In this document: positions 266 to 48,238 of the stretch, one piece after another
Layout: each line of letters starts with the position of its first letter
How positions within the stretch are numbered: position 1 is the first letter of the stretch
Sequence record: NC_019725.1
Source: Escherichia phage ADB-2
Strand: one strand, 5' to 3'
DNA length: 50,552 bases
Made by a program: the position numbers and the translations under genes
Notes under the pieces: generated by a model
What the model was told of the DNA's origin: nothing
Databases searched by the model: none
The model's input: only the letters and a program-made list of their open reading frames with translations

Positions 266-345
266 CGCATTAACTCCTGATTGGTTATCTTGAATAAGGC
301 CACTTTATCAAATGACCTTACGGCAATATTAACAAATCGTGCTAT

Positions 346-555: not shown

Positions 556-558
556 CAA

Positions 559-783: not shown

Positions 784-999
784 TTTTAATTCCTTTGTTT
801 GTTTGGTGTTGGAGTAATATACCTTACTCCCTGATGATTGTCTTTAGCTATTCGTGCTATCAGTACTCAGAAATTACTTTGCACTCTTTGATTGTGCCGC
901 CTAGAACTACTTTCTGCATCATTGCTTTTTGGTGGCTATCGTAAACGCGAACATTTTTTACGCTGTTAAATTTGCCAGTATAGAAAGTGTGAATATAAA

Positions 1000-1320: not shown

Positions 1321-1336
1321 TATTCCCCCTAACCAG

Positions 1337-1537: not shown

Positions 1538-1565
1538 ACAATGCCTCTCTTGTGGATATACGCGA

Positions 1566-1928: not shown

Positions 1929-1983
1929 CTCGTCATTCTCCTGATTGGTTGATGTGTTAACTATACCCCGATTCCCTTCGGGC

Positions 1984-2002
1984 GTTTAGCAAAAAGTGCT
2001 AT
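1984..2002 (-). promoter_or_regulatory. conserved intergenic element TAGCAC-N5-TTGCTAAAC (copy 1)
   Basis: reverse complement reads ATAGCACTTTTTGCTAAAC; upstream of minus gene 1566..1928. Confidence 0.6.
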
Positions 2003-2188: not shown

Positions 2189-2203
2189 TTGTTAGTCCGT
2201 TAA

Positions 2204-2389
2204 TTAAAAGAATGCTACATAGTTTGCAATGCCTTTGGCGTCGTCGTTAGGCATTGCCTTGACAGCCAGGTCGTAACCAGCTTCTACCTTCTGCTTTGCT
2301 GATTCTTCGCTGTACCCCCAAATAACCAGAATTTTAACTACGTTTTCTTTGTTCAGGACTTTAAGGTCTTTAGTGATGCGACGTGCCAT
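2204..2389 (-). CDS. hypothetical protein
   Basis: ORF with start set at ATG (MARRITK...) having GAGGAAA RBS. Confidence 0.45.
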   Translation of the reverse strand: MARRITKDLKVLNKENVVKILVIWGYSEESAKQKVEAGYDLAVKAMPNDDAKGIANYVAFF

Positions 2390-2446
2390 TTTATTTTTCC
2401 TCAATCTCGTTTCGATGAGGTAATTATGACAAATCACACCGATCGA

Positions 2447-2467
2447 GTTTTAACAAAAAGTGCTATT
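2447..2467 (-). promoter_or_regulatory. conserved intergenic element (copy 2)
   Basis: rc = AATAGCACTTTTTGTTAAAAC. Confidence 0.6.
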
Positions 2468-3153: not shown

Positions 3154-3213
3154 CGTGACTTCCTCTTCTGATTGGTTTATGTGCCGGACTATACCCGATC
3201 TACCCGACCGAGT

Positions 3214-3233
3214 CGTTAGCAAAAAATGCTATT
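3214..3233 (-). promoter_or_regulatory. conserved intergenic element (copy 3, variant TAGCAT)
   Basis: rc = AATAGCATTTTTTGCTAACG; upstream of methyltransferase-like gene. Confidence 0.55.
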
Positions 3234-4434: not shown

Positions 4435-4680
4435 ATGAGTATGAGCAAAATTAAGCATGACGCCCTGAAAGGTATCTTGATGCGACTAAACCCAGGCGAA
4501 GCATTCCAGCTTAACCCCGAGACGTTTGGATTCAATGGTGATTATCGTACAACCTTCGAATTTGTAAGGTATGTAAAGAAAGAGTTTGGATTCGAAGTTA
4601 TTCACGCAGGTCTTATCAATGGCATCCAGACATTCATCTTTAAGCCAAATGAGATTCGTTGCTTCACACTGATGAAATAG
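4435..4680 (+). CDS. hypothetical protein
   Basis: 81-aa ORF, AGGAGAG RBS. Confidence 0.5.
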   Translation: MSMSKIKHDALKGILMRLNPGEAFQLNPETFGFNGDYRTTFEFVRYVKKEFGFEVIHAGLINGIQTFIFKPNEIRCFTLMK

Positions 4681-4695
4681 CACTTTTTGTTAAAG
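4676..4695 (+). promoter_or_regulatory. conserved intergenic element (copy 5)
   Basis: AATAGCACTTTTTGTTAAAG; TAG doubles as stop of upstream ORF. Confidence 0.6.
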
Positions 4696-4752
4696 ACCGG
4701 TCTAGCGGATCGGGTATTATCTTTTCATCGACACGATACAGAGGAAACGAAT

Positions 4753-4947
4753 ATGGAAACGCAAATTGACGTAGTGGTTGTTCAGCGCGACTCAACTCAT
4801 GAAAAGGGTCTGTTCAAGAAAGGAACCGAAATCACGATCGACCTTGAGGATATGGTTGCATATCACTCGGGCCTTACCTGGAACGTGGTGCGCGTAGGCA
4901 GCGACTACAAACTCAAAGGCTTTAACACTTACTTTGCAGAGGTTTAA
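4753..4947 (+). CDS. hypothetical protein
   Basis: 64 aa from ATG with GAGGAAA RBS. Confidence 0.5.
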   Translation: METQIDVVVVQRDSTHEKGLFKKGTEITIDLEDMVAYHSGLTWNVVRVGSDYKLKGFNTYFAEV

Positions 4948-4949
4948 TC

Positions 4950-5420
4950 ATGGCGACAATTACCGTATTCCTGGCTAAAGATGAGATTGATGGCGAAATG
5001 TCATTCTTCGCGTTTGAGCACAAAACCGGATCGCACTGGCATATGTACAGCCACTACACGGTCATCGATATCAACTCATACCGCGCAAACTCACTTACTG
5101 AAAAGCTGAGTTGCTTCATTGGAGCTATCAAGGTGAACAATGGCTGCGAGTGGGAAGATGAGCACGAAGAGCGCCGCATGTGCAATATGATTAACCCGGT
5201 CTATCTTGAGTCGTTCGAGCTTGATGCTGATGTGGCTATTAAGGTGAGAAAGTCGGGTGAGTTGTTGCCAGGGATGCGTGTGCTGACTGGTTACTCAGGT
5301 CGTAAGGTATGGCGCACTGTATCAAAGATTCGCCATCGTTCGGCAACATGCTATAGCGTATTCTTTGATGATGGTTGGAATATGATGTCCGGCAGTGAAG
5401 TAAAGTATCTCACCAAATAG
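4950..5420 (+). CDS. hypothetical protein
   Basis: 156-aa ORF. Confidence 0.5.
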   Translation: MATITVFLAKDEIDGEMSFFAFEHKTGSHWHMYSHYTVIDINSYRANSLTEKLSCFIGAIKVNNGCEWEDEHEERRMCNMINPVYLESFELDADVAIKVRKSGELLPGMRVLTGYSGRKVWRTVSKIRHRSATCYSVFFDDGWNMMSGSEVKYLTK

Positions 5421-5436
5421 CACGAATTGCTAAATC
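5416..5436 (+). promoter_or_regulatory. conserved intergenic element (copy 6)
   Basis: AATAGCACGAATTGCTAAATC; TAG = stop of 4950..5420. Confidence 0.6.
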
Positions 5437-5497
5437 AGCGCAGCAAGGAGGCTGTATATTAAACTAATTGAAACAAACGATTCTAGATGAGGAAAGA

Positions 5498-5758
5498 ATG
5501 AATAAGTCAGAGTTTATTGGAAGGGTAATTGATTGCAATTTAAGATTTGAAGTTAAAAAGGTGAGAGTGAACAAGGATAGAAATTATGGCCTTGACATTC
5601 AAACATACTCCCTCTGGCTGGTTGGCGAGCACAGCTCTGATGATACAATCACAATGGGGATTGATGCGCAGCCTCTTCTTGTAAAGTTTAGAAGCATTGA
5701 TAAAGCAAATAAAGAAGCTGAAAAGTTTAACAGATGGATAGGTAGCACGAATTGTTAA
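5498..5758 (+). CDS. hypothetical protein
   Basis: 86 aa, GAGGAAAGA RBS; C-terminus reads through the next element copy. Confidence 0.5.
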   Translation: MNKSEFIGRVIDCNLRFEVKKVRVNKDRNYGLDIQTYSLWLVGEHSSDDTITMGIDAQPLLVKFRSIDKANKEAEKFNRWIGSTNC

Positions 5759-5762
5759 AAAC
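5742..5762 (+). promoter_or_regulatory. conserved intergenic element (copy 7)
   Basis: GTAGCACGAATTGTTAAAAAC followed by hairpin GGGGTA...TACCCC carrying TATAGT. Confidence 0.6.
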
Positions 5763-5823
5763 GGATCGGGGTATCTTGCTATAGTTACCCCATCAAAACG
5801 AGATACCAATCAGAGGATTAACC

Positions 5824-6054
5824 ATGTCAATCGTCAAGAACCAACAAGCCATCGACTCAACCAGCCACAACCGCTTTGCTATTTTCATCACTCGCGACAA
5901 CAAGCGATTTGCTGTCAGGGCCGTGCCTGGTGGATACAAAACCTATATGGAAAATAACGGAAAATGGGTATGCTGCGACAACCTTGCCAACTTCCTGGTA
6001 TGGAACGCAGACCTGCAAGGATTCGATGATATCAGCACTTTAATTGAGGAATAA
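5824..6054 (+). CDS. hypothetical protein
   Basis: 76-aa ORF after CCAATCAGAGGA leader. Confidence 0.5.
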   Translation: MSIVKNQQAIDSTSHNRFAIFITRDNKRFAVRAVPGGYKTYMENNGKWVCCDNLANFLVWNADLQGFDDISTLIEE

Positions 6055-6060
6055 ATAATC

Positions 6061-6288
6061 ATGCCACGTTACAGTAACCTAACCAAACTAGTCCGCGTAA
6101 ACGGGCACATGATCCCGGCAAAATCTACTCACTGCGCTAAGGGAGCAAAGCACGGATTATATTTCAAGTGGCGCGGTCAGTGGAACTTCACGGCGGTGAG
6201 TAATTTCTACATGCGCGTTCCTGGTGACGATCCGCAATCGGTAGTAGAAAACTCAATCGGCGACAACAAGATCGAGGTACTAAAATGA
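6061..6288 (+). CDS. hypothetical protein
   Basis: 75-aa ORF. Confidence 0.45.
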   Translation: MPRYSNLTKLVRVNGHMIPAKSTHCAKGAKHGLYFKWRGQWNFTAVSNFYMRVPGDDPQSVVENSIGDNKIEVLK

Positions 6289-6395
6289 ACTTCAATACAA
6301 TAGCTCTATGGTCTGCCGTCTGGTTCTTCTGCATGGGTCACGTTATGGTCGGCATCGTGGTAATGCTTCTCCTGTGTGCGGGGGCGTTCGAATGA
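6285..6395 (+). CDS. small hydrophobic (membrane) peptide
   Basis: 36-aa ORF MNFNTIALWSAVWFFCMGHVMVGIVVMLLLCAGAFE; ATGA overlap with upstream stop. Confidence 0.4.
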   Translation: MNFNTIALWSAVWFFCMGHVMVGIVVMLLLCAGAFE

Positions 6396-6565
6396 TGCGA
6401 ATATTGATTTGCATGATGGCGGCGGTCGCCCTGGCTATCCTGGTAGTGTCAGGATGCGGAGAGGTCAGAGATAGCTGTCATAAGACCGGGAACCAGGTTA
6501 CTACGTTTGTGATGGTTGGCAATGTTTTGCTACCAATCACATCAAATGAAATCACTTGCGAATAG
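6392..6565 (+). CDS. small putative lipoprotein
   Basis: MMRILICMMAAVALAILVVSGC... signal peptide with lipobox-like VSGC; ATGA overlap with previous ORF. Confidence 0.4.
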   Translation: MMRILICMMAAVALAILVVSGCGEVRDSCHKTGNQVTTFVMVGNVLLPITSNEITCE

Positions 6566-6573
6566 AGGTTGAT

Positions 6574-6765
6574 ATGGCTGATTTTATGCACCAAATGATT
6601 GCAGTATTCAAAGGCAGTGATGACCAGGAAGTGAAAGAGTGCTTTACTGTCGACAAGACTTATAGTGCATCGCTAACCAGTTTCGGGAATATCTCATTAC
6701 TTGATGATAACGGCGACCCCTGGATATTCGACGAAGACACCGATTGCTTCGAAATTAAAGAATAG
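6574..6765 (+). CDS. hypothetical acidic protein
   Basis: 63 aa from ATG; stop TAG is part of next element copy. Confidence 0.45.
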   Translation: MADFMHQMIAVFKGSDDQEVKECFTVDKTYSASLTSFGNISLLDDNGDPWIFDEDTDCFEIKE

Positions 6766-6781
6766 CACTTTTTGTTAAAAA
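6761..6781 (+). promoter_or_regulatory. conserved intergenic element (copy 8)
   Basis: AATAGCACTTTTTGTTAAAAA then hairpin GGGGTT...AACCCC with TATAGT. Confidence 0.6.
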
Positions 6782-6836
6782 TAAATTCCGGGGTTGCGAT
6801 ATAGTAACCCCATCGACAACGAACGAGGACGAGAAC

Positions 6837-7355
6837 ATGAAAATTAAATTACTTTGCACTGGCGGTTACAAAGGCTTTACCCGAGATCTGGAAGCAGACC
6901 CTATCGTGGTTGATGCGGTGAAGTGTGATTCCAGTACCGGAGGCTACCGCGTTAAGGTTGACGATCTGGTTAAAGCTGGCGTGTACGATCTGGACTATGG
7001 ACTTTCGGTTAGCCCTGTATTTGGTCCGGCTGACTTTAACGAGAATGACGGAACGATGTTCTTCTTCGAATGGGAAGTCCAAGCAAATCCTAAGCCGCGC
7101 AAGGTTCGACTTCTCAGTAATGGCGGCTACCCGCTGCGACAAGGCTATGAGAACCGCACATTCCCAGTTATCGTGGACTTTGAAGAAATTACTAGCAATC
7201 TGGCATACGTTAACGATGAGCAGTTGCGAGCCGTTGGATTTGTCGGTGGGATGAATAAAGAGGCACTTTGCTTCTTCCACTGTAACGCCGAGCCGTTCGA
7301 TATTGAGTGCGAGTTAGTTACTAAGCACGAATTGTTAAAAGGGGATTCGTCCTGA
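6837..7355 (+). CDS. hypothetical protein
   Basis: 172-aa ORF. Confidence 0.5.
   Translation: MKIKLLCTGGYKGFTRDLEADPIVVDAVKCDSSTGGYRVKVDDLVKAGVYDLDYGLSVSPVFGPADFNENDGTMFFFEWEVQANPKPRKVRLLSNGGYPLRQGYENRTFPVIVDFEEITSNLAYVNDEQLRAVGFVGGMNKEALCFFHCNAEPFDIECELVTKHELLKGDSS
7322..7340 (+). promoter_or_regulatory. conserved intergenic element (copy 9)
   Basis: TAAGCACGAATTGTTAAAA; followed by hairpin GGGGATT...AATCCCC. Confidence 0.6.
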
Positions 7356-7356
7356 C

Positions 7357-7365
7357 TGGTATAAT
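7357..7365 (+). promoter_or_regulatory. extended -10-like box TGgTATAAT
   Basis: Perfect TGnTATAAT 31 nt upstream of the ATG at 7396, inside the hairpin following element copy 9. Confidence 0.4.
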
Positions 7366-7395
7366 CCCCACATCAACCACTAAGAGGAAAGCATC

Positions 7396-7902
7396 ATGTT
7401 AAAATTAGAAGACGTAAAATTCCCGATTAAATTTATCAGCCTGGGTCGCGGTGAAATTACATTCACCAGTGAAGATAAAGGCAAGTGGGCCACTGATGAG
7501 GTGTCTCAGCTTAAGTTGGATTGGTTTATCAATCGGCACAATGAAGTAAATCCTGAAAACTCAGCCAAGAAGGATTACCATTACATTATTAGTGGTAGTC
7601 AGGATGCGTACGAAAAGTATGATGGTTGGAAAACTGATCGATCCATCTTCCACCCCGCAAAGCCAGAAATTAAACCGATGTTACAATGCACTCAGATCGA
7701 GAACATGCCATTGAGCGCTACGCTAAAGGGCGTTCAACTTGATAGCGAATCCTGGATCGAGATTACCGCCACACCTAAAACTATTGAGGTGCATGATGAT
7801 GTAGTGATTCTCCTATTGCATTACGGCAGCTTTAAGCACAAAACGGTATCAGGTGAAATAAGCGTTAAGCGCGGAACACTTGTACGCTATGAGGTGAAAT
7901 AA
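7396..7902 (+). CDS. hypothetical protein
   Basis: 168-aa ORF. Confidence 0.5.
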   Translation: MLKLEDVKFPIKFISLGRGEITFTSEDKGKWATDEVSQLKLDWFINRHNEVNPENSAKKDYHYIISGSQDAYEKYDGWKTDRSIFHPAKPEIKPMLQCTQIENMPLSATLKGVQLDSESWIEITATPKTIEVHDDVVILLLHYGSFKHKTVSGEISVKRGTLVRYEVK

Positions 7903-8051
7903 TGGCGGCGTGGATTTTGATTATCTTGATGAGTACCGGGCCAGATCACGTATACATGGAAAGCCAACAATCATGCAACAAGGCTCGGGAAGTAATTGCA
8001 GAAAACAAGCCGTTCGGATACGAAGTAAAAACAATGTGCGTTAAACGATAG
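7902..8051 (+). CDS. small hydrophobic protein (49 aa)
   Basis: ATG overlapping upstream TAA (TAATG); hydrophobic N-terminus MAAWILIILMSTG; stop TAG is part of element copy 10; below the ORF-track size cutoff. Confidence 0.4.
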   Translation: MAAWILIILMSTGPDHVYMESQQSCNKAREVIAENKPFGYEVKTMCVKR

Positions 8052-8066
8052 CACGAATTGCTAAAC
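8048..8066 (+). promoter_or_regulatory. conserved intergenic element (copy 10)
   Basis: ATAGCACGAATTGCTAAAC then hairpin GGCCA...TGGCC with TGATATAGT. Confidence 0.6.
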
Positions 8067-8131
8067 CTTCCGCAAGGCCATTTGATATAGTGGCCTTATT
8101 GAAGCATGGCAACCAATCAGAGGAATCAGTT

Positions 8132-8344
8132 ATGGCTACACGACTAACTCAATGGCAGATTTACGACAAGGCATCTCGCCTTCGTGAATCACTTCGAGGT
8201 CTGACACCGAATGATCGCATGGAAATCATCGGTCATGCATTGCACGAACTCACGCCGCATGAAGTAACCTATCATTCTTGCGGCAATAAATTTTGGAACG
8301 TAACATTCGAGGTGAAGAAAGATGAGCAAGATTCACAAACTTAA
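8132..8344 (+). CDS. hypothetical protein
   Basis: 70 aa from ATG after CCAATCAGAGGA leader. Confidence 0.5.
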   Translation: MATRLTQWQIYDKASRLRESLRGLTPNDRMEIIGHALHELTPHEVTYHSCGNKFWNVTFEVKKDEQDSQT

Positions 8345-8609
8345 GATCAATCCTGTACATTTCATTGGTGTAATGAACGGAACCAAAACGGCAGAGTTCC
8401 GCATCAATGACCGCAACTTCCAGGTTGGTGATATCATTGAGCTACGCGAGTTCGATCGTGACGAGTTTACTGGGTGGGAAGTTCACGCAAGGGTATCCGA
8501 TGTTACCGATGTGACGCCATACATCAATCGCGGGTATGACGATCAGGAATGCGACTTCACGCAATACGTGATGTTATCAATCAAACCTTACAGGAAGGTT
8601 AGACCATGA
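8322..8609 (+). CDS. ASCH/DUF3850-like small protein (PUA-like fold candidate)
   Basis: 95 aa; N-terminal pattern KIHKLKINPVHF...GTKTAEFRINDRNFQVGDIIELRE resembles the DUF3850 family; recalled from memory, not searched. Confidence 0.45.
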   Translation: MSKIHKLKINPVHFIGVMNGTKTAEFRINDRNFQVGDIIELREFDRDEFTGWEVHARVSDVTDVTPYINRGYDDQECDFTQYVMLSIKPYRKVRP

Positions 8610-9007
8610 AATTTGAATGCGTATCAAGTAGCGGATCTGGCTTTAAGTGGGGAAAAATCTACGAAGGCGCTCGAATCAATGACGACAGCTTCGTTGTCGT
8701 GGATGAGAACGGCAGTAACGTGAACATCATCCGTCGTCACGAGTACCAGGAAATTTTCCTGCCGTATTGCGGTAGTTCAAAATATATCTTCCATCGAATC
8801 GTGGATGGTGTTAAATTTAGAGACGTAATCGAAGCAATCAATCAACTGCATAATAAAGAGGTAAAATTTATGAAATTTGAATGTATCAGTGATAATACCA
8901 AAAAATTTACTGTTGGCAAAATCTACGACGTTCCTACTGAGCACGCAAAGCACACTGTAGCGCTTACTGACGATACGCCGTCACCGCATTGCTACCGTAA
9001 CGCATAA
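8606..9007 (+). CDS. hypothetical protein with internal tandem duplication
   Basis: 133 aa; MKFECVSSSGSGFKWGKIYEG and MKFECISDNTKKFTVGKIYDV are repeated modules; the second is preceded by an in-frame AAAGAGG RBS + ATG at 8871. Confidence 0.45.
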   Translation: MKFECVSSSGSGFKWGKIYEGARINDDSFVVVDENGSNVNIIRRHEYQEIFLPYCGSSKYIFHRIVDGVKFRDVIEAINQLHNKEVKFMKFECISDNTKKFTVGKIYDVPTEHAKHTVALTDDTPSPHCYRNA

Positions 9008-9256
9008 TGGCGAAGGTCTGCGATGGAATAGCGGCGGCACTAAGTTTGCAACGTTCGGCAAGAAGCGTAAGCGCACTTTCTGCGTTAAAGGCAAGGTTGC
9101 AGCAAACAAGAACCACAGCGTCAAGCCAATCGAAGTTGATGGTAAAGTCAAGCCTAAGCTGACCAACAAGGACATTGATAATCTGGCGAACCTGGCTATG
9201 GCTACCGTGCTTCTTATTTCTCTTATCGTGCTGTTTTTCGTAGTTTAACTTAAAGT

Positions 9257-9288
9257 GGGAATCGTTCCTGAGCGGTTCCCTATTTTTA
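9257..9288 (+). terminator. rho-independent terminator-like hairpin
   Basis: GGGAATCG-loop-CGGTTCCC followed by TATTTTTA. Confidence 0.55.
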
Positions 9289-9298
9289 TGAGGTGAAT

Positions 9299-9421
9299 AT
9301 GAATAGCTTTATGCCTGACTTTAAGAACTGGAAAAACGAACCTCCATCATTTCAGGAGTTGCTATTCTGCCTCCTGGTCCTGACATTATCTCTTAAGGGT
9401 GTTTTATGGCTACTATCATGA
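9299..9421 (+). CDS. small membrane protein (40 aa)
   Basis: ATG with GAGGTGA RBS; hydrophobic C-terminal half LLFCLLVLTLSL; below ORF-track cutoff. Confidence 0.35.
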   Translation: MNSFMPDFKNWKNEPPSFQELLFCLLVLTLSLKGVLWLLS

Positions 9422-9624
9422 CAGCAGAAGATGCAGCACGTGAAGCAGTGGAAGGAATGCGACCAAATACCTCCAGAATCGCACACTACTACAAATTTGA
9501 CGTATCAGCAGTGCAATTGGTCCATGAAATTTTAAGGCTCCCACAAGTCGATTCAGCGCGCGTGGTGACGTGCTTAAAAAATTATTTTTGCATCACTATT
9601 AAAACGAATAGCACGAATTGCTAA
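9406..9624 (+). CDS. hypothetical protein
   Basis: 72-aa ORF; C-terminus reads through element copy 11. Confidence 0.45.
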   Translation: MATIMTAEDAAREAVEGMRPNTSRIAHYYKFDVSAVQLVHEILRLPQVDSARVVTCLKNYFCITIKTNSTNC

Positions 9625-9627
9625 AAC
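9607..9627 (+). promoter_or_regulatory. conserved intergenic element (copy 11)
   Basis: AATAGCACGAATTGCTAAAAC then hairpin AGGGGAAT...ATTCCCCT. Confidence 0.6.
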
Positions 9628-9681
9628 CTATCAAGGGGAATGCGCTATGATTCCCCTACACCAAAAAACGAGGAAGCACGA

Positions 9682-10128
9682 ATGAAACACCTAATCTGTA
9701 TTGAAGCACCTAACGACGAGTACACTCTGCATGGTTTAGGTATGTTCAAAGGTCACTACATTACAGCTAAGATTCAAGATGACAAGCTGGATGATGGCGA
9801 TCTGGAAATCACATCGAAAGATGTTAATCCTTACATCATGCAGAATCTTGGAAATAACGAATATATGGCCTACGGCTGCAATGCGGTGTACAAGCATGTC
9901 AATATCCGCAAACGCGTTGTTCGAGCGTTCAAGAAAATTGCAATGAAATACTGGAAGATGAGCAAGAAAGATGCCGGGCGCTGGGCGCGTAACGCTGCTG
10001 ATTTATACTTCTATAGCAGCGGAGAGCCAGCCAACTTCCTGATCGATGAAATGATGGAAAATTATAGCGGCACATTCTGCCAAAGTGACTTTGACGCCTG
10101 GGTTGGACGCGAGTTAGATTACTGGTAA
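9682..10128 (+). CDS. hypothetical protein
   Basis: 148 aa from ATG with GAGGAAG RBS. Confidence 0.5.
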   Translation: MKHLICIEAPNDEYTLHGLGMFKGHYITAKIQDDKLDDGDLEITSKDVNPYIMQNLGNNEYMAYGCNAVYKHVNIRKRVVRAFKKIAMKYWKMSKKDAGRWARNAADLYFYSSGEPANFLIDEMMENYSGTFCQSDFDAWVGRELDYW

Positions 10129-10147
10129 TAGCACGAATTACTAAAAC
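10127..10147 (+). promoter_or_regulatory. conserved intergenic element (copy 12)
   Basis: AATAGCACGAATTACTAAAAC then hairpin AAGGGCAT...ATGCCCTT. Confidence 0.6.
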
Positions 10148-10211
10148 TTGCTCAAGGGCATTTGTTAGAATGCCCTTCGTTGAGTTAAGCAACCAATCAG
10201 AGGAATAAATC

Positions 10212-10823
10212 ATGGATAAAATCACAATTTGGGGCCAGACAATCAACCTGTTTCTCGGTACGCGCCGCGTAGCAATCTTTGACTTTGATGGAACACTTAG
10301 CGATGGATCTGGTCGACTTCACCTGCTACCTACAAAGGATTTGCACTTAACTGAAAGCTGGTCCGAGTTTAACCGCGCGGCAATATTTGACAACCCTATC
10401 CAAAGCACGATCGATGTGATGAACTCTATGTTTGCCGCTGGATATCATGTAATAATTTTAACCGGGCGAAGTGATGAGGTGCGTTACGCATCTGAGTTAT
10501 GGCTTAAGCATCACGGCGCTCGATATGATTACCTGATTATGCGACCGCATACCGACAACCGCAAAGACACGGTAATGAAAGAAGAGGCAGTGCGCGCTAT
10601 CGGCATTGATAACATTCTTGCGGCATGGGATGACTCACCGCAAATTATTCCATTATTCCGCTCGCTTGGAATAACAACTTACGCTGTAGTTGACTATGGC
10701 GATAACGTTCACAATCATTTAAAATCTCACGGGGTAGATGAGGTTTGCAATCATGAACCATCTGAGCCGCTACCGCCATTTGGTGAGAAAATTTGCATTA
10801 AGTGCAAGGAGTTATTGAAGTGA
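10212..10823 (+). CDS. HAD-superfamily phosphatase (polynucleotide 3'-phosphatase or nucleotidase-like)
   Basis: AIFDFDGTLSDG (HAD motif I DxDGT), ILTGR (motif II), downstream K and WDDS (motif IV). Confidence 0.6.
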   Translation: MDKITIWGQTINLFLGTRRVAIFDFDGTLSDGSGRLHLLPTKDLHLTESWSEFNRAAIFDNPIQSTIDVMNSMFAAGYHVIILTGRSDEVRYASELWLKHHGARYDYLIMRPHTDNRKDTVMKEEAVRAIGIDNILAAWDDSPQIIPLFRSLGITTYAVVDYGDNVHNHLKSHGVDEVCNHEPSEPLPPFGEKICIKCKELLK

Positions 10824-10931
10824 ACCTATACGAATTTATTGCAGCGCATCCGGTATTAACGGTTATCATTCTGCTAATCATCAATCACACTATCATCAAT
10901 GTAGCAAAATTATTTTTAGGGAGATGCTAAC

Positions 10932-11504
10932 ATGAAAACAGCTATCATTTTAAACGGTGCACCTGGTGCTGGAAAGGACACTATCGGATGCATCCTGGCT
11001 GACACTTACGATCATGTAGCTTTGCGCAGCTTCAAAGCACCAATGTTTGAGATTGCTCGGGCAATCTTGGGTGAAACTAACTACGAGTATTTCATGTTCT
11101 TGTATGAGGACCGTAGTTACAAAGAAGAGCCAGCATCAATCCTGAACGGTAAAAGCCCGCGCCAGTTTATGATCTGGATTAGCGAGGAAGTCATCAAGCC
11201 GCAGTTCGGAAATCGATTCTTCGGTATGCGAGCGGAAAGCAAGGTGAAAGAGTCGCACTCACTTTCGGTATTTACTGACGGGGGATTCAAAGACGAGATC
11301 TTGCAAATGATTGAAGGAGATATCCAGGTCAAGCTATGCCGCATACATCGCAACGGTTGCAACTTCGATAACGACAGTCGCGATTATATCTATCTGGACG
11401 ATATGATCGGGGTTAACGGTTATCAGGAATGTGACTTCTTCTCTGTCGAAGGTCATCCAGAAATTACCGCTCAGCACATAGCCGCTACGTTCATCAACAA
11501 ATAG
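10932..11504 (+). CDS. P-loop nucleotide/nucleoside-monophosphate kinase-like protein
   Basis: N-terminal Walker A ILNGAPGAGKDT, reminiscent of phage dNMP kinases; adjacent to HAD phosphatase. Confidence 0.55.
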   Translation: MKTAIILNGAPGAGKDTIGCILADTYDHVALRSFKAPMFEIARAILGETNYEYFMFLYEDRSYKEEPASILNGKSPRQFMIWISEEVIKPQFGNRFFGMRAESKVKESHSLSVFTDGGFKDEILQMIEGDIQVKLCRIHRNGCNFDNDSRDYIYLDDMIGVNGYQECDFFSVEGHPEITAQHIAATFINK

Positions 11505-11520
11505 CACGAATTGCTAAAAC
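11499..11520 (+). promoter_or_regulatory. conserved intergenic element (copy 13)
   Basis: AAATAGCACGAATTGCTAAAAC; TAG = stop of kinase gene. Confidence 0.6.
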
Positions 11521-11576
11521 GTCGGTGGGGTGATTTGATATAGTTACCTCATCGACAACGAAGAGAGAAAATCGAA

Positions 11577-11786
11577 ATGATGGTATCAACTGATAAGTTT
11601 TTCACTTGCACTAAAACTTCTGAAGTATTCGAACTGGTTCATACTGATAACGGCGATTTCATGCATGACGGTTGCGACGTTTTCATTGAAGTGAAAGAAA
11701 GCGACTATGATGACGGGGTTTATTACAACCCGGCAGTGAACACTCAGTTTTTTACACCGATCGGAGATGAGGGAGAAGAGGCATGA
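11577..11786 (+). CDS. hypothetical protein
   Basis: 69-aa ORF. Confidence 0.45.
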   Translation: MMVSTDKFFTCTKTSEVFELVHTDNGDFMHDGCDVFIEVKESDYDDGVYYNPAVNTQFFTPIGDEGEEA

Positions 11787-13287: not shown

Positions 13288-13311
13288 TAACCCGCTTCGG
13301 CGGGTTTTTTT
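13288..13311 (+). terminator. rho-independent terminator
   Basis: CCCGCTTCGGCGGG hairpin + TTTTTTT. Confidence 0.8.
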
Positions 13312-13323: not shown

Positions 13324-13332
13324 TGGTAAAAT
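13324..13332 (+). promoter_or_regulatory. extended -10-like box TGgTAAAAT
   Basis: Directly after terminator and overlapping start of element copy 14. Confidence 0.35.
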
Positions 13333-13349
13333 AGCACTAAATGTTAAAC
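13329..13349 (+). promoter_or_regulatory. conserved intergenic element (copy 14)
   Basis: AAATAGCACTAAATGTTAAAC immediately followed by RBS AAGAGGA and the terminase small subunit ATG. Confidence 0.6.
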
Positions 13350-13364
13350 AAAGAGGATGGATTT

Positions 13365-20014: not shown

Positions 20015-20042
20015 CATAAAAACACTTTGACGCTTTAACAAA

Positions 20043-20063
20043 AAGTGCTATTATTGAAGCCGT
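20043..20063 (-). promoter_or_regulatory. conserved intergenic element (copy 15, antisense to late genes)
   Basis: rc = TAATAGCACTTTTTGTTAAAG; located between plus-strand late genes. Confidence 0.5.
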
Positions 20064-20067
20064 GAAC

Positions 20068-20096
20068 ATAATCACGGCTTTTTTATTAACTACGGA
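20068..20096 (+). terminator. rho-independent terminator
   Basis: AGCCGTGA-loop-TCACGGCT + TTTTTT. Confidence 0.8.
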
Positions 20097-23733: not shown

Positions 23734-23760
23734 GGGGCTTGCGCCCCCTTATTCATTTCT
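23734..23760 (+). terminator. terminator-like GC hairpin
   Basis: GGGGGC-TTGC-GCCCCC followed by T-rich TTATTCATTTCT. Confidence 0.5.
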
Positions 23761-23792
23761 GTAAAATCATCGTATCAACTTTATTCGATTAA

Positions 23793-23813
23793 CTTTTAAC
23801 AAAAAATGCTATC
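23793..23813 (-). promoter_or_regulatory. conserved intergenic element (copy 16, antisense orientation)
   Basis: rc = GATAGCATTTTTTGTTAAAAG; lies just upstream of plus-strand chaperone gene but in opposite orientation. Confidence 0.5.
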
Positions 23814-40935: not shown

Positions 40936-40956
40936 GTAGCACTTTTTGCTAAAAAC
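40936..40956 (+). promoter_or_regulatory. conserved intergenic element (copy 20)
   Basis: GTAGCACTTTTTGCTAAAAAC, 15 nt upstream of TGtATTAT box (40972-40979). Confidence 0.6.
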
Positions 40957-41017
40957 GTTTACTGTATGTCGTGTATTATAGCGTAAACGATACAACGATT
41001 CAAAGGATTAAATAGCC

Positions 41018-43035: not shown

Positions 43036-43448
43036 TTACAGATAAAGGCGATTACCTAGAGTTTTACGAGCGAGATCCTAGCGATACGCGAAAGGAGGAC
43101 GCTCATCAAGTAGACTGCGTGTCTTGGTTGAAATACAATTTTCCTCAGCTTCTATTTTGGCACACAGTTAACGAAGGTGAAAAAACAATCACTTCGGCAC
43201 TTAGGGATGAGCAGGCTGGATTGCTTAAAGGCGTATCAGACTTCGTTATCCTGATAGGTGTAAACTCACGCTACCCGTTTGCAGCTATCGAACTCAAGCG
43301 AGTTAATAAGTCCGGAAAAGGAAAGGCATCACCAGTCAGCGATAAGCAAAGGGAGTTTCTCAAAAAGGTTCGGGATCGCGGTGGATTCTCTGCCGTTGCA
43401 TACGGATTTGAGCAATTCAAGCTGGCGATATACGATTTAACTAAATAG
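43032..43448 (+). CDS. VRR-NUC domain nuclease
   Basis: 138 aa; VSDFVILIG...AIELKR (D...E-x-K) pattern; immediately downstream of helicase. Confidence 0.65.
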   Translation: MITDKGDYLEFYERDPSDTRKEDAHQVDCVSWLKYNFPQLLFWHTVNEGEKTITSALRDEQAGLLKGVSDFVILIGVNSRYPFAAIELKRVNKSGKGKASPVSDKQREFLKKVRDRGGFSAVAYGFEQFKLAIYDLTK

Positions 43449-43464
43449 CACTTTTTGTTAAAAC
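43443..43464 (+). promoter_or_regulatory. conserved intergenic element (copy 21)
   Basis: AAATAGCACTTTTTGTTAAAAC; TAG = stop of VRR-NUC gene. Confidence 0.6.
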
Positions 43465-43515
43465 TGCCGGAATGGAATCTGGCATTATTATCTCACCGAA
43501 ACGAGAGGATTAAAA

Positions 43516-44229: not shown

Positions 44230-44477
44230 TGAGCGAAAAAATGGTTCCTGTTAAATTAACTGATCAAGGGTTATGGCTTCTTTATCGCGCTACGTGCTGC
44301 GAAATTATGGAGCGAAACGGATTAACTAAAGATGTTATTGGTTGCGATTTATGGGAGTTTACAAGTTCTCTTGATATGTCGTTCGATGAGATAAAGAATA
44401 AACACATCGAGCATTGGCCTTCAATCATTCAGAAAGACGTAGAAGAACTTAAATCCGACACGATCTTACAGCACTAA
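44226..44477 (+). CDS. hypothetical protein
   Basis: 83-aa ORF overlapping upstream stop; C-terminus reads into element copy 22. Confidence 0.45.
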   Translation: MMSEKMVPVKLTDQGLWLLYRATCCEIMERNGLTKDVIGCDLWEFTSSLDMSFDEIKNKHIEHWPSIIQKDVEELKSDTILQH

Positions 44478-44487
44478 TTGCTAAAAC
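44468..44487 (+). promoter_or_regulatory. conserved intergenic element (copy 22)
   Basis: ACAGCACTAATTGCTAAAAC followed by hairpin TACCCG...CGGGTA and TATAGT. Confidence 0.55.
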
Positions 44488-44543
44488 TACCCGGCGAAAG
44501 TCGGGTATAGTTATTTCATCAAAACGAAATGAGGAATAAGAAG

Positions 44544-48156: not shown

Positions 48157-48216
48157 GATGATTTCCTTCATGTCGTTTCATTTCGATAAAACAAATATAC
48201 CCGATACGAGATCGGC

Positions 48217-48238
48217 GTTTTAACAAAAAGTGCTATTT
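48217..48238 (-). promoter_or_regulatory. conserved intergenic element (copy 24)
   Basis: rc = AAATAGCACTTTTTGTTAAAAC; its TAG is the stop of minus ORF 48233..48436. Confidence 0.6.

What the first reader, a model, noticed from the sequence alone, without database searches (positions are those of the whole stretch)
4676..11580. Stereotyped early-gene cassette: element, short GC hairpin carrying a TATAGT/TATAAT box, conserved leader, then ATG
Downstream of most plus-strand early copies there is a 5-8 bp GC-rich hairpin whose loop or 3' arm contains TATAGT, TATAAT or TATTAT, often with an upstream TG (e.g. GGGGATTCGTCCTGACTGGTATAATCCCC at 7341-7369; GGCCATTTGATATAGTGGCC at 8075-8094). This is followed by a conserved leader ATCGACAACGA or CCAATCAGAGGA that ends in the RBS. 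The same architecture occurs on the minus strand at 1930-2005 and 3160-3235. A -10 box embedded in a hairpin suggests structure-dependent promoter activity or an mRNA processing/stability module. Each small gene having its own copy implies cassette-wise gene gain.
Basis: seen in the sequence. Interest (0 to 1): 0.7.

Follow-up and report, generated by a model that had tools for sequence, protein, structure and literature searches.

The report
Marbox promoter-hairpin cassettes in T1-like phage
The repeated unit between the small early genes of this T1-like phage is a compact promoter whose upstream box matches, in sequence and in spacing, the E. coli binding site for the stress regulators MarA/SoxS/Rob; it is wrapped in an RNA hairpin that marks the end of the preceding gene, and new genes are swapped in and out at these units.

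Summary
The window is a T1-like phage (Drexlerviridae). It carries 23 copies of aaATAGCAC-N4-TGYTAAAA, 9 of them in 4676-11580. In most copies TGnTATAAT follows 18 bp later, then a conserved C-A start, a short leader, an SD and ATG.

The "element" is the 21-nt T1/TLS direct repeat, whose function is described as unknown. Here it proves identical to the E. coli MarA ChIP-seq consensus marbox (GCACTAATTGCTAAA). It lies forward, in the same register to the -10 as the class II promoter micF. No AraC-type protein was detected in the phage sequences examined. The best reading is therefore about 20 extended -10 promoters served by host Rob/MarA/SoxS/RamA. This is inferred from sequence and is untested.

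The hairpin is also real:
- Mean MFE is -10.5 against -3.9 kcal/mol in controls.
- Compensatory changes occur among orthologues.
- It favours G·T over A·C and is stronger when a co-directional gene ends at the box.
- It mostly lacks a U-tract.

It most likely acts on read-through RNA as a 3' stabiliser or leaky terminator, not as a structure-dependent promoter.

Homology breakpoints fall at the boxes. One box-flanked 308-bp insertion carries a T4-like gene.

The parts
4677..4752 (+). Cassette 1. Marbox 4677-4696 (its TAG at 4678-4680 is the stop codon of the upstream gene). Hairpin 4697-4713, upstream of the -10. -10 TATTAT at 4715-4720. Predicted +1 at 4727. Leader ATCGACACGA. ATG at 4753.
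   Evidence: The terminator-like scan flags 4697-4713 followed by GTATTATCTT. Fold z is -1.3.
5417..5497 (+). Cassette 2, the left boundary of the insertion. Marbox 5417-5436. Weak hairpin 5440-5455. -10 TATATT at 5455-5460. Predicted +1 at 5467. ATG at 5498.
   Evidence: Fold z is -1.0. Homology to JMPW1 ends inside this marbox.
5435..5742 (+). 308-bp insertion relative to JMPW1-type relatives, flanked by direct marbox repeats. It carries gene 5498-5755 (86 aa, AT-rich), whose closest homologues are in T4-like Dhakavirus phages.
   Evidence: L009 has a single marbox where the window has two. tblastn gives 63% identity to MX01 ORF233 in the frd.1-frd.2 region.
5742..5823 (+). Cassette 3. Marbox 5742-5761. 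Hairpin 5764-5794 encloses TGcTATAGT. -10 at 5780-5785. Predicted +1 at 5792. ATG at 5824.
   Evidence: Fold -13.4 kcal/mol, z -2.4. Homology to T1 begins exactly here (H36 query_from 1068).
6762..6836 (+). Cassette 4. Marbox 6762-6781, an exact MarA consensus match. Hairpin 6790-6811 (GGGGTTGC/GTAACCCC). -10 TATAGT at 6800-6805. Predicted +1 at 6812. Leader ATCGACAACGA. ATG at 6837.
   Evidence: Fold z is -4.0. Orthologues show GGGGTT/AACCCC, GGGCTT/AAGCCC and GTGGTT/AACCAC.
7322..7395 (+). Cassette 5. Marbox 7322-7341, with TAG mutated to AAG so the upstream ORF runs on to 7355. Hairpin 7341-7369. TGgTATAAT with -10 at 7360-7365. Predicted +1 at 7372. ATG at 7396.
   Evidence: Orthologues show GGGGATT/AATCCCC, GGGCATT/AATGCCC and GGTCAT/ATGACC.
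8048..8131 (+). Cassette 6. Marbox 8048-8067. Hairpin 8067-8104 (inner stem 8074-8097) encloses TGaTATAGT. -10 at 8086-8091. Predicted +1 at 8098. Leader ends in CCAATCAGAGGA. ATG at 8132.
   Evidence: Fold -16.0 kcal/mol, z -2.7. The inner helix is 99% paired, with 4 of 9 pairs changed on both sides. This cassette alone matches over 200 distant Drexlerviridae at 88-98% identity.
9608..9681 (+). Cassette 7. Marbox 9608-9627. Hairpin 9634-9657 (AGGGGAAT/ATTCCCCT). -10 TATGAT at 9646-9651. Predicted +1 at 9658. ATG at 9682.
   Evidence: Fold z is -4.0.
10128..10211 (+). Cassette 8. Marbox 10128-10147. Hairpin 10147-10189. -10 TAGAAT at 10166-10171, the same hexamer as micF. Predicted +1 at 10178. 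Leader CCAATCAGAGGA. ATG at 10212 (polynucleotide kinase/phosphatase).
   Evidence: Fold -18.6 kcal/mol, z -4.1.
11501..11576 (+). Cassette 9. Marbox 11501-11520. 15-bp hairpin 11521-11556 with four G·U pairs, whose 3' arm includes the leader CATCGAC. -10 TATAGT at 11539-11544. Predicted +1 at 11551. ATG at 11577.
   Evidence: Fold -22.4 kcal/mol, z -6.5..
271..345 (-). Minus-strand cassette. Marbox 345-326. Hairpin 328-286. -10 TAAAGT at 307-302. ATG at 270.
   Evidence: Fold z is -3.9.
784..860 (-). Minus-strand cassette. Marbox 860-841. Hairpin 830-811. -10 TATATT at 821-816. ATG at 783.
   Evidence: Fold z is -3.6.
1929..2002 (-). Minus-strand cassette. Marbox 2002-1983, an exact consensus match. 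Hairpin upstream of the -10. -10 TATAGT at 1965-1960. ATG at 1928.
2390..2466 (-). Minus-strand cassette. Marbox 2466-2447. Hairpin 2447-2406. TGtCATAAT with -10 at 2428-2423. ATG at 2389.
3154..3232 (-). Minus-strand cassette. Marbox 3232-3213. Hairpin 3213-3192. -10 TATAGT at 3193-3188. Leader CCAATCAGAAGAGGA. ATG at 3153.
40936..40990 (+). Cassette upstream of the helicase region. Marbox 40936-40955. Hairpin 40956-40989. -10 TATTAT at 40974-40979.
43445..43515 (+). Cassette. Marbox 43445-43464. Hairpin upstream of the -10. TGgCATTAT with -10 at 43483-43488. ATG at 43516.
44468..44528 (+). Cassette. The marbox 15-mer at 44471-44485 equals the published consensus gcactaattgctaaa. Hairpin CCCGGCGAAAGTCGGG is followed by TATAGTTATTT. 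ATG at 44529.
48172..48236 (-). Cassette. Marbox 48236-48217. Hairpin upstream of the -10. -10 TATATT. ATG at 48171.
13331..13350 (+). Marbox with no -10 at the fixed distance. Its 15-mer is identical to the E. coli pheP MarA site. It lies just after terminator 13289-13306, at the start of the next gene.
20027..20087 (+). Region upstream of the major capsid gene. TTGACG-N16-TGcTATTAT lies at 20027-20054, and its spacer is a backward marbox (20051-20032 on the minus strand). A canonical terminator follows at 20059-20087.
   Evidence: The arrangement is conserved in T1 and in the distant locus L101.
23758..23812 (-). Marbox 23812-23793 with a conserved extended -10 (TGaTACGAT at 23774-23769), directed antisense into the late operon and towards bidirectional terminator 23733-23750.

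Best explanation
Each cassette is a compact intergenic module of T1-like phages that does four jobs in about 75 bp.

1. **Upstream box.** The 20-bp repeat aATAGCACnnWTTGYTAAAA is a consensus marbox, the asymmetric site bound by the monomeric host activators MarA, SoxS, Rob and, in Klebsiella and Salmonella, RamA. It is forward-oriented, occupies -50 to -31 and replaces the -35 hexamer. Its TAG or TAA usually also serves as the stop codon of the upstream gene.

2. **Core promoter.** Eighteen bp downstream lies an extended -10 (TGnTATAAT-like), and 7 nt after that a conserved C-A start. This is the class II MarA/SoxS/Rob geometry of micF. Host sigma-70 RNA polymerase is proposed to start here. 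The helper would be constitutively present Rob in unstressed cells, and MarA, SoxS or RamA under antibiotic, oxidative or bile stress.

3. **Hairpin.** A GC-rich stem is fitted into the sequence-free positions of the promoter, namely the spacer (-30 to -17) and the discriminator plus start (-6 to +6). The TG and -10 therefore fall in the loop or just 3' of the stem. The promoter's own transcript starts at or after the 3' arm, so only RNA reading through from the upstream gene can fold the hairpin. There it acts as a 3'-end stabiliser or processing mark. In the subset where the U-rich -10 follows the stem, it acts as a leaky terminator.

4. **Recombination point.** The roughly 20 identical boxes per genome are sites at which promoter-gene units are gained, lost and exchanged.

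Shown here: the sequence identity to the marbox, the geometry, selection on hairpin pairing, and breakpoints at the boxes.

Inferred: binding and activation by host factors, the start site, and what the RNA hairpin does.
For: **Marbox identity**
- The published MarA consensus is GCAHWWWWTGYYAAA (PMC6900184), also given as gcactaattgctaaa (PMC5684230).
- The window has 11 exact matches against 0.04 expected. The other copies differ only by G at the fifth position, as in the real ibpA and tolC sites.
- The consensus of 404 phage boxes is GCACTAATTGCTAAA, identical to the consensus of 30 E. coli ChIP sites. Mean column correlation is 0.93, against a maximum of 0.60 for any other window of the cassette.
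- Phage boxes score a median of 18.4 bits on the E. coli matrix, higher than the E. coli sites themselves at 13.7.

**Geometry**
- Class II means a forward marbox overlapping the -35 (PMC12052159). RamA binds at about -41 on micF.
- In the Rob-RNAP-micF structure, Rob contacts -47G, -45A, -38G and -37T.
- In natural micF, the start of GCAC lies 35 nt before the start of the -10, and the gap from box to -10 is 18 bp. Both values are the same in the cassette consensus.

**Promoter core**
- TG, the TATAAT-like hexamer and C-A sit at fixed positions.
- 274 of 364 boxes have at least 4 of 6 matches to the -10 at the exact position.

**No phage AraC-type protein detected**
- tblastn with MarA against the window and 950 kb of relatives gives a best E of 3.2.
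- 30 early proteins have no AraC HTH in Pfam.

**Hairpin**
- MFE and z-scores.
- In a single fixed register, 53.3% of positions pair, against 46.7 ± 0.6% in shuffles. 66 cassettes form full helices, against 14 expected.
- Orthologue covariation score is 0.22 against 0.087, with 0 of 500 shuffles reaching it.
- G·T outnumbers A·C by 58:5 raw and by 30:5 as independent events.
- The hairpin is stronger when an ORF of at least 60 codons ends at the box: -12.7 against -8.1 kcal/mol, p = 9e-8.
- The box supplies the stop codon: of the 277 boxes with an upstream ORF of at least 40 codons, 133 use the TAG and 39 the TAA.
- The 3' arm ends at -1 in 66 of 147 cassettes.

**Modularity**
- Homology islands in other phages start at boxes 5743, 6762 and 7323 and end at the next cassette.
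- HSP ends are enriched threefold in cassettes.
- One insertion is flanked by boxes and carries a T4-like gene.
Against: - No binding, transcription or start-site data exist for any T1-like phage in the searched literature.
- Extended -10 promoters can work without any activator, so the box may only modulate expression.
[quoted passage not shown] Yet T1 grows fast in such cells.
- The box has partial dyad symmetry (TAGCA-N5-TGCTA), which a phage dimer could use.
- Once pairs touching the constrained TG/-10 bases are excluded, the G·T over A·C bias falls to 14:5 independent events (p = 0.06).
- Five of the 14 window cassettes folded have weak hairpins, with z above -1.5.
Confidence: 0.6

Rival explanations
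1. The repeat is bound by a phage-encoded protein rather than by host MarA/SoxS/Rob. One candidate is the Cro-like regulator at 40471-40995, the T1 gp23 homologue; another is an unrecognised early protein. The protein would act as a middle-gene activator, as MotA does in T4, or as a stoperator-type repressor. On this view the likeness to the marbox is coincidental or convergent.
For: - The box contains the dyad TAGCA-N5-TGCTA.
- The phage encodes an HTH protein with a weak P22_Cro match, below Pfam's cut-off.
- The TLS authors proposed stoperators or enhancer sites.
- A canonical sigma-70 promoter at 3453-3481 could drive an immediate-early activator gene.
Against: - Conservation is asymmetric. 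G3 is invariant, while its dyad partner at position 13 is C in only 56% of boxes. The flanks, AAT on one side and AAAA on the other, are not symmetric. This fits a monomer with two different HTH motifs.
- Fifteen of 15 consensus positions equal the E. coli marbox, including the degenerate A/T spacer and the Y positions.
- The base-pair register to the -10 equals that of micF. That amounts to more than 22 bits plus the spacing arising by coincidence.
Confidence: 0.2
2. The hairpin works at the DNA level. The inverted repeat around the -10 extrudes or breathes under supercoiling, or on activator-induced distortion, and so gates promoter opening.
For: - The inverted repeat is centred on the upstream edge of the -10 (centre at position 37.5 in 71 cassettes).
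- The discriminator is GC-rich.
- MarA can activate transcription by distorting base pairing next to its site (PMC12781870).
Against: - Stems of 5-9 bp with loops of 6-15 nt are poor cruciform formers (established knowledge).
- G·T wobbles are tolerated on the sense strand, while A·C, which would be G·T on the other strand, is rare: 30:5, or 14:5 with the strict filter.
- A third of the hairpins lie wholly upstream of the -10.
- Hairpin strength tracks the presence of an upstream co-directional ORF. A promoter-intrinsic role does not predict that.
Confidence: 0.1
3. The hairpins are ordinary Rho-independent terminators that end each upstream transcription unit. The promoter merely overlaps them, giving the terminator-promoter 'transcriptons' described for T1.
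For: - WebGeSTer and TransTermHP call six of them terminators in phage SA12KD.
- In hairpins upstream of the -10, the U-rich -10 and discriminator serve as a tail: 28% have at least 5 T in 8 nt. The scan flags 4697-4713.
- The T1 literature speaks of modules flanked by terminators.
Against: - The main class, which encloses the -10 (n = 147), has on average 1.2 T in the 8 nt after the stem. Only 2% reach 5 T.
- Where the phage uses canonical terminators, at 9257-9280, 13289-13306 and 20059-20087, they have clear U-tracts.
- The T1 RefSeq record annotates none of the cassette hairpins as terminators.
Confidence: 0.2
4. The boxes are not promoter elements. They would be decoys that soak up host MarA/SoxS/Rob, or UP-like contacts for the alpha subunit, or simply recombination sites with no role in transcription.
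For: - About 20 near-optimal boxes per genome, multiplied by replication, would titrate a scarce regulator.
- Some boxes have no -10 at the fixed distance: 3437-3418, 13331-13350 and 39394-39413.
- UP-element and enhancer roles were suggested for TLS.
Against: - The spacing from box to -10 is fixed at 18 ± 1 bp in about 75% of boxes, and orientation is strictly co-directional. Neither is needed for a decoy or a recombination site.
- The box is not A/T-only, unlike UP elements.
Confidence: 0.1

Closest known systems
Class II MarA/SoxS/Rob/RamA-dependent promoters of Enterobacteria (micF, lpxC P2, lpxL P1, rfaY P1)
   Same: - Box sequence GCAC-WWWT-TG-YY-AAA.
- Forward orientation.
- The box overlaps or replaces the -35.
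- The same 18-bp gap to the -10 as micF.
- A sigma-70 -10.
   Different: - Found on a virulent phage genome, about 20 times, with boxes closer to consensus than most chromosomal sites.
- Combined with an extended -10 and an overlapping inverted repeat.
- The box doubles as a stop codon.
- Binding and activation are untested.
21-nt direct repeat of phage TLS (aaATAGCACnnnTTGnTAAAA), also noted in T1, Rtp and Rogue1 (PMC11447400)
   Same: This is the same element. Its consensus, copy number (21 in TLS, 23 here), co-directionality with genes and distance of about 76 nt to start codons all agree.
   Different: The paper leaves the function open, suggesting stoperator, enhancer or UP element. It found only three sigma-70-like promoters. 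It does not link the repeat to a fixed extended -10, to the hairpin or to the marbox.
PeSL/PmSL cassettes of T4-like phages (promoter-early or promoter-middle stem-loops; PMC4122927)
   Same: - Small composite promoter plus stem-loop units between small non-essential genes.
- They sit at indel boundaries and mediate modular gene shuffling.
- PmSLs pair an activator box (the Mot box) with a -10.
- Here a T4-like gene sits between two boxes.
   Different: - A different phage family and different sequences.
- PeSLs have a near-consensus -35/N17/-10, and their stem-loops are described as effective terminators.
- Here the -35 is replaced by a host-type activator box, and the -10 lies inside or next to a stem that mostly lacks a U-tract.
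T4 middle promoters (MotA box at -30 plus -10, sigma appropriation)
   Same: An activator box substitutes for the -35 and is combined with a good -10, and this arrangement is used for many phage genes.
   Different: The MotA box is centred at -30 and needs phage MotA and AsiA. Here the box is centred at about -40 and matches a host regulator's site. No MotA- or AsiA-like protein was found.
Intercistronic RNA hairpins that shape polycistronic mRNAs (T7 early RNase III sites; REP stabilisers in E. coli operons)
   Same: Stable stem-loops lie just after stop codons in tandem gene arrays, lack a U-tract and are sense-strand specific. Comparison from general knowledge.
   Different: The T1-like stems are shorter, at 6-15 bp. 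No cleavage data exist. They overlap a promoter.
Phage N4 virion-RNAP hairpin promoters
   Same: A promoter sequence associated with a short GC hairpin.
   Different: N4 promoters have a stem of 5-7 bp and a 3-nt loop recognised by a phage single-subunit RNAP. Here the loops are 6-15 nt and hold a sigma-70 extended -10, and no phage RNAP is encoded.

Membership tests
Class II MarA/SoxS/Rob-dependent promoter | A marbox matching GCAHWWWWTGYYAAA (AYnGCACnnWnnRYYAAAY). | tested here: met
   11 exact matches in the window against 0.04 expected. The phage consensus equals the E. coli ChIP consensus, with column correlation 0.93 and a median of 18.4 bits. The consensus is taken from PMC6900184 and PMC5684230.
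Class II MarA/SoxS/Rob-dependent promoter | The marbox is in forward orientation relative to transcription. | tested here: met
   All full cassettes read GCAC...AAA towards the downstream -10, SD and ATG. The rule is from PMC12052159.
Class II MarA/SoxS/Rob-dependent promoter | The marbox overlaps the -35 position, centred at about -41. | tested here: met
   The start of GCAC lies 35 nt before the start of the -10, and the gap is 18 bp. Both values are identical in natural micF and in the cassette consensus. They are consistent with the Rob contacts at -47, -45, -38 and -37. Positions relative to +1 rest on a predicted start.
Class II MarA/SoxS/Rob-dependent promoter | The box is bound by MarA, SoxS or Rob, and transcription depends on the activator. 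| not testable with these tools
   Needs EMSA or footprinting, in vitro transcription and host mutants. No such data were found in the literature.
Extended -10 sigma-70 promoter | TGn immediately upstream of a TATAAT-like hexamer, with a purine start about 7 nt downstream. | tested here: met
   G at -14 in 78% and TG in 44.5% of boxes. The hexamer shows T 68%, A 81% and final T 81%. C-A occurs at -1/+1 in 64% and 75%. A standard -35/-10 scan does not pick the cassettes up, because no -35 lies at 16-18 bp.
Rho-independent terminator | A GC-rich stem-loop followed directly by a U-tract. | tested here: not met
   The stem is present, but in the main class only 2% have at least 5 T in the next 8 nt (mean 1.2). 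In the class upstream of the -10, 28% do. A minority may therefore qualify.
PeSL/PmSL-type shuffling cassette | A composite promoter plus stem-loop located at the boundaries of gene indels between related phages. | tested here: met
   An insertion is flanked by boxes. Homology islands begin at boxes. HSP ends fall in cassettes 38 times against 12.9 expected.
PeSL/PmSL-type shuffling cassette | A sigma-70 -35/N17/-10 early promoter, or a Mot box, of T4-like phages. | tested here: not met
   There is no -35 at N17, the box is a marbox, and the phage is a member of the Drexlerviridae. The cassette is analogous to PeSLs, not a member of that family.
T1/TLS 21-nt direct repeat | Consensus aaATAGCACnnnTTGnTAAAA, co-directional with genes, about 76 nt upstream of start codons, about 20 copies per genome. 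| tested here: met
   ATG lies at cassette positions 55-84.
Cruciform- or structure-gated promoter | Strand-symmetric pairing with a short loop, so that both strands can extrude. | tested here: not met
   G·T outnumbers A·C by 30:5 independent events, or 14:5 with the strict filter. Loops are mostly 4-15 nt.
N4-type hairpin promoter | A hairpin with a 3-nt loop recognised by a phage-encoded virion RNAP. | tested here: not met
   Loop sizes do not fit. No RNAP gene is reported for T1 or TLS.

The most novel reading that the evidence does not exclude
T1-like phages may have wired almost their whole non-structural transcription programme to the host's MarA/SoxS/Rob/RamA stress regulators.

- About 20 forward, near-optimal marboxes would make the early and middle promoters class II targets.
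- A backward marbox forms the spacer of the near-consensus promoter upstream of the major capsid gene (20027-20054). A marbox overlapping the promoter spacer is the arrangement through which MarA and SoxS repress E. coli pbpG.
- The same host factor would then switch early genes on and hold a late promoter off. Replication multiplies the boxes and could titrate the factor, giving a built-in early-to-late timer.
- Phage gene expression, and hence phage susceptibility, would depend on antibiotic, oxidative and bile stress.
Probability: 0.2. Interest if true: 0.9.

Novelty: new variant of a known kind. Interest (0 to 1): 0.7.

Why it matters
The 21-nt repeat of T1-like phages has been described with no assigned function, and these phages appeared to have almost no recognisable promoters. 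Reading the repeat as a class II marbox with an extended -10 supplies about 20 promoters per genome and names a testable host factor.

If this holds, a classic group of virulent coliphages, widely considered for therapy against E. coli, Klebsiella, Shigella and Salmonella, depends on or listens to the same regulators that drive intrinsic multidrug resistance. Salicylate, bile, paraquat, or mar, ram and rob mutations in clinical strains could then change phage gene expression. Phage DNA could in turn sequester these regulators.

The cassettes also show how a promoter, an RNA 3' hairpin and a stop codon can be packed into one portable unit of about 75 bp. That unit moves genes between phages as different as T4-like and T1-like.

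Tried and rejected
- **Sigma-54 promoter.** TGGCAC-N5-TTGCW resembles TAGCAC-N3-TTGCT. Rejected because the spacer is 2 bp short and GG is AG (reasoning from the known consensus).
- **IHF, CRP and FNR sites.** Their consensus sequences do not fit in register (from knowledge).
- **TTGYTA as a -35.** It lies 22 bp from the -10, which is too far. No -10 sits 17 bp downstream.
- **Known RNA family.** No Rfam hit at gathering threshold anywhere in the window.
- **Phage-encoded MarA-like protein.** tblastn and Pfam scans of 30 proteins were negative. The remaining roughly 50 ORFs were not scanned.
- **Antisense terminator.** Read on the other strand, the hairpin is followed by UUUUA from the box. 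Considered unlikely because the wobble pairs become A·C mismatches on that strand.
- **Spread outside T1-like phages.** Single matches in viral contigs of 85-320 kb are intragenic and lack the -10 geometry.
- **Experimental start-site or RNA-seq data for Drexlerviridae.** None found.
- **T1 genome paper (Virology 2004).** Not held, so I could not check what it says about 'enhancers'.
- **Hairpins in cassettes without an upstream gene.** Whether they lack hairpins was tested. They are weaker but not absent, and this class is contaminated by short upstream ORFs.

Full report
**What the window is.** Megablast of 4676-11580 finds 318 phage records, all T1-like (Drexlerviridae). The best is Escherichia phage LeonhardEuler at 91% identity over 92% of the query. 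The window equals a 50,552-bp IMG/VR viral genome. Genes left of about 3440 run on the minus strand and genes right of about 3850 run on the plus strand. They diverge from an AT-rich region that holds a canonical sigma-70 promoter, TTGACC-17-TACAAT, at 3453-3481.

**Checking the observation.**
- The pattern TAGCACNWWTTRYTAA, with up to one mismatch, occurs 23 times against 0.12 expected. Nine copies are plus-strand copies inside the finding, and five are minus-strand copies in 300-3240.
- The quoted hairpins are at 7341-7369 (exact) and 8076-8095 (one base off).
- RNA folding of the 47 nt after each repeat gives z-scores of -2.4 to -6.5 for 6 of the 9 in-range cassettes and for 2 of the 5 minus-strand ones. 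The others are weaker.
- There are 9 cassettes for roughly 21 ORFs in the range, so "each small gene has its own copy" is too strong.

**Bringing in relatives.** A scan of viral contigs for ATAGCACNNNTTGNTAAAA returned 120 stretches. Nearly all contigs with several hits are 39-52 kb T1-like genomes. Single hits in much larger contigs are intragenic chance matches. I added T1 itself and collected 404 unique cassettes with at most one mismatch.

Numbering the T of TAGCAC as position 1, the position-specific profile is sharp well beyond the repeat:
- T/G at 35/36, with G in 78%.
- A hexamer at 38-43: T 68%, A 81%, T 66%, A 57%, A/G, T 81%.
- C-A at 49/50, in 64% and 75%.

This is exactly TGnTATAAT followed 7 nt later by a pyrimidine-purine start. 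The fixed linear spacing holds even though the hairpin changes place and size. That argues that the repeat and the -10 are read together on DNA. A standard -35/N16-18/-10 scan does not call these sites, because nothing -35-like lies at the right distance. The TTGYTA inside the repeat is 22 bp from the -10.

**What the repeat is.**
- The TLS re-annotation paper describes this same 21-nt direct repeat: aaATAGCACnnnTTGnTAAAA, 21 copies, co-directional, about 76 nt before start codons, and also present in T1, Rtp and Rogue1. It leaves the function open (stoperator, enhancer or UP element) and reports only three sigma-70-like promoters (PMC11447400).
- Comparing the repeat with host regulator sites, it fits the marbox. 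The published MarA consensus is 5'-GCAHWWWWTGYYAAA-3' (PMC6900184). The ChIP-seq consensus is gcactaattgctaaa, and bound sites include gcactaaatgttaaa (pheP), gcattttttgctaaa and gcacgaaacgttaaa (PMC5684230).
- The window has 11 exact matches to the IUPAC consensus against 0.04 expected. The 15-mer at 44471-44485 equals the ChIP consensus, and the one at 13334-13348 equals the pheP site. The remaining copies have only a G at the fifth position.
- The majority consensus of the 404 phage boxes is GCACTAATTGCTAAA, letter for letter the consensus of 30 E. coli ChIP sites. Mean column correlation is 0.93, and no other window of the cassette exceeds 0.60.
- On the E. coli log-odds matrix the phage boxes score a median of 18.4 bits, better than the E. 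coli sites' own median of 13.7. The best of 100,000 random 15-mers scores 13.1.

**Geometry.**
- Class II MarA-type promoters carry a forward marbox overlapping the -35 (PMC12052159; PMC6900184). RamA sits at about -41 on micF (PMC8811837). In the Rob-RNAP-micF cryo-EM complex, Rob contacts -47G, -45A, -38G and -37T and displaces sigma region 4 from the -35 (PMC9178005).
- I fetched natural micF from an E. coli chromosome. GCACTGAATGTCAAA is followed by 20 nt and then TAGAAT, so the start of GCAC lies 35 nt before the start of the hexamer and the 20-bp box is 18 bp from it.
- The phage consensus has exactly the same numbers, with GCAC at position 3 and the hexamer at 38. With +1 at the conserved A, GCAC falls at -47 to -44, TG at -39/-38 and AAA at -35 to -33.
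- All sequence-testable criteria for a class II marbox promoter are therefore met. Binding and activation cannot be tested here.
- No AraC/XylS-type protein was detected in the phage sequences examined. Pfam scans of 30 early-region proteins show no AraC HTH. The only regulator-like protein is the T1 gp23 homologue, with a sub-threshold Cro-like HTH.
- Conservation within the box is asymmetric, with an invariant G3 against 56% C at its dyad partner. This fits a monomer with two different HTH motifs better than a symmetric dimer.
- I found no paper that connects marboxes with T1-like phages.

**The hairpin is real and selected.**
- Across the family the 44 nt after the box fold at a mean of -10.5 kcal/mol, against -3.9 for a same-length coding control, with mean z of -2.2.
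- There are two designs. In the larger class (n = 147) the stem encloses the TG and -10. It is centred at position 37.5-39.5, and its 3' arm ends at -1 in 66 cases. In the other class (n = 98) the stem sits in the spacer and the -10 follows it.
- Covariation is clear. In one fixed register, over 282 cassettes not selected for structure, 53.3% of cells pair against 46.7 ± 0.6% in shuffles and 38-45% in slid controls. 66 cassettes pair at 6 or more of 7 positions with their own 3' arm, against 14 with another cassette's arm.
- Within orthologous families the arms change together. Examples are AAGGCCA/TGGCCTT, AACGTCA/TGGCGTT and AAGCCCA/TGGGCTT; GGGGATT/AATCCCC, GGGCATT/AATGCCC and GGTCAT/ATGACC; and GGGGTT/AACCCC, GGGCTT/AAGCCC and GTGGTT/AACCAC.
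- For the family of the cassette at 8049, the 9-bp helix is 99% paired, 4 of 9 pairs change on both sides, and the covariation score is 0.22 against 0.087, with 0 of 500 shuffles reaching it.

**At which level does the hairpin act?**
- A strand-symmetric stem search finds 58 G·T and 5 A·C internal mismatches. Collapsed to independent events this is 30 against 5 (p = 2e-5).
- Many of the wobbles involve the fixed T and G of the -10. Excluding those leaves 14 against 5 (p = 0.06). The bias is therefore suggestive rather than conclusive.
- Independently, among cassettes with a good -10, the hairpin is much stronger when a co-directional ORF of at least 60 codons ends at the box: -12.7 against -8.1 kcal/mol, p = 9e-8.
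- The box itself supplies the stop codon. Of the 277 boxes with an upstream ORF of at least 40 codons, 133 use the TAG and 39 the TAA.
- Stems of 5-9 bp with loops of 6-15 nt are poor cruciform formers.
- The promoter's own RNA begins at or beyond the 3' arm, so only read-through RNA can fold the structure.
- The main class has no U-tract: mean 1.2 T in the 8 nt after the stem, with 2% reaching 5 T. In the spacer class the U-rich -10 and discriminator follow the stem, and 28% reach 5 T. Annotators of phage SA12KD called six of these hairpins terminators using tools that tolerate weak tails. The phage's canonical terminators at 9257-9280, 13289-13306 and 20059-20087 have clear U-runs.
- My reading is that the hairpin belongs to the 3' end of the upstream message. 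It acts as a stabiliser or processing mark in most cassettes and as a leaky terminator in a minority. It is squeezed into the promoter positions that carry no sequence constraint, which is why the -10 ends up in the loop. The exact RNA function is inferred, not shown.

**Modularity.**
- Homology between the window and other phages repeatedly starts at a box and ends at the next cassette. T1 homology begins at 5743. ECO104 4-5-2 homology begins at 6761. LF82-11 shares only 6762-7398. XT34 shares only 7324-8124. More than 200 distant Klebsiella and Escherichia phages share only 8048-8120, the cassette itself.
- Ends of local alignments fall in cassette spans 38 times against 12.9 expected.
- Relative to JMPW1, the window has a 308-bp insertion (5435-5742) flanked by two boxes where JMPW1 has one. 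Its AT-rich gene is 63% identical to an ORF in the frd.1-frd.2 hyperplastic region of T4-like Dhakavirus phages and has no closer relative among T1-like phages.
- This is the behaviour described for PeSL/PmSL cassettes of T4-like phages (PMC4122927). It is found here in another family with another promoter type.

**Verdict.**
- The repeat and the hairpins have been seen before, in the TLS paper and in terminator annotations. The cassette concept has a precedent in PeSLs.
- What appears new is that the repeat is a consensus marbox in exact class II register with an extended -10. This gives these phages about 20 promoters and implicates host Rob/MarA/SoxS/RamA.
- That step rests on sequence and geometry only, and it needs the binding, transcription and host-mutant experiments listed under next steps.

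Noticed in passing
window 20027-20087 (+), marbox 20051-20032 (-): Upstream of the major capsid gene, the + strand reads TTGACG-N16-TGcTATTAT. This is a near-consensus sigma-70 promoter whose spacer is a backward consensus marbox. It is followed at once by a canonical terminator whose 5' arm contains the predicted start. The arrangement is conserved in T1 and in a 66%-identical relative. In E. coli pbpG, a marbox overlapping the promoter spacer mediates repression by MarA and SoxS (PMC12052159).
   Followed up: partly
window 23733-23812 (-): A marbox with a conserved extended -10 (TGaTAnnAT, conserved across distant genera) points antisense into the late operon, between the major tail gene and the next gene. 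It would produce an RNA of about 45 nt ending in the bidirectional terminator GGGGGCTTGCGCCCCC.
   Followed up: partly
window 5498-5755 (+): An AT-rich 86-aa ORF inside the box-flanked insertion has its best homologues (63% aa identity) in T4-like Dhakavirus phages, in the frd.1-frd.2 hyperplastic region. This indicates gene flow between T4-like and T1-like phages.
   Followed up: partly
window 13331-13350 (+): A marbox identical to the E. coli pheP MarA site lies immediately after strong terminator 13289-13306 and overlaps the start region of the next gene at the entry to the late genes. It has no -10 at the fixed distance and is conserved in relatives (cluster 10).
   Followed up: no
all marboxes, e.g. 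window 4677-4683: The reverse complement of the box's 5' end, ATAGCAC, is GTGCTAT, which reads TGnTAT. Every box therefore carries the first half of an extended -10 on the opposite strand. With the usual AAA upstream, this gives TGcTATTTT.
   Followed up: no
window 3437-3850: An AT-rich, repeat-laden divergent region (tatatacatatagatatatgtatatatataa...) lies between the two early arms. It holds a canonical promoter, TTGACC-17-TACAAT, at 3453-3481, and a box without a -10 at 3437-3418. It may be the immediate-early control region or an origin.
   Followed up: no
window 7322-7355: In the cassette at 7323 the box's TAG is AAG, and the upstream ORF (6837-7355) reads through the box and into the hairpin for 10 extra codons. 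This natural variant shows that the box normally supplies the stop codon.
   Followed up: no
window 4753-4944 (+): The first cassette-driven gene in the range matches Pfam PF25180, 'Phage antiviral trigger protein Gp54' (E = 2.6e-36).
   Followed up: no
window 39394-39470 (+): A box followed by a poor -10 (TACACG) faces the bidirectional terminator of the convergent primase gene. Like the site at 23796, it could give a short antisense RNA, but the -10 lacks the final T in all relatives (cluster 11).
   Followed up: no
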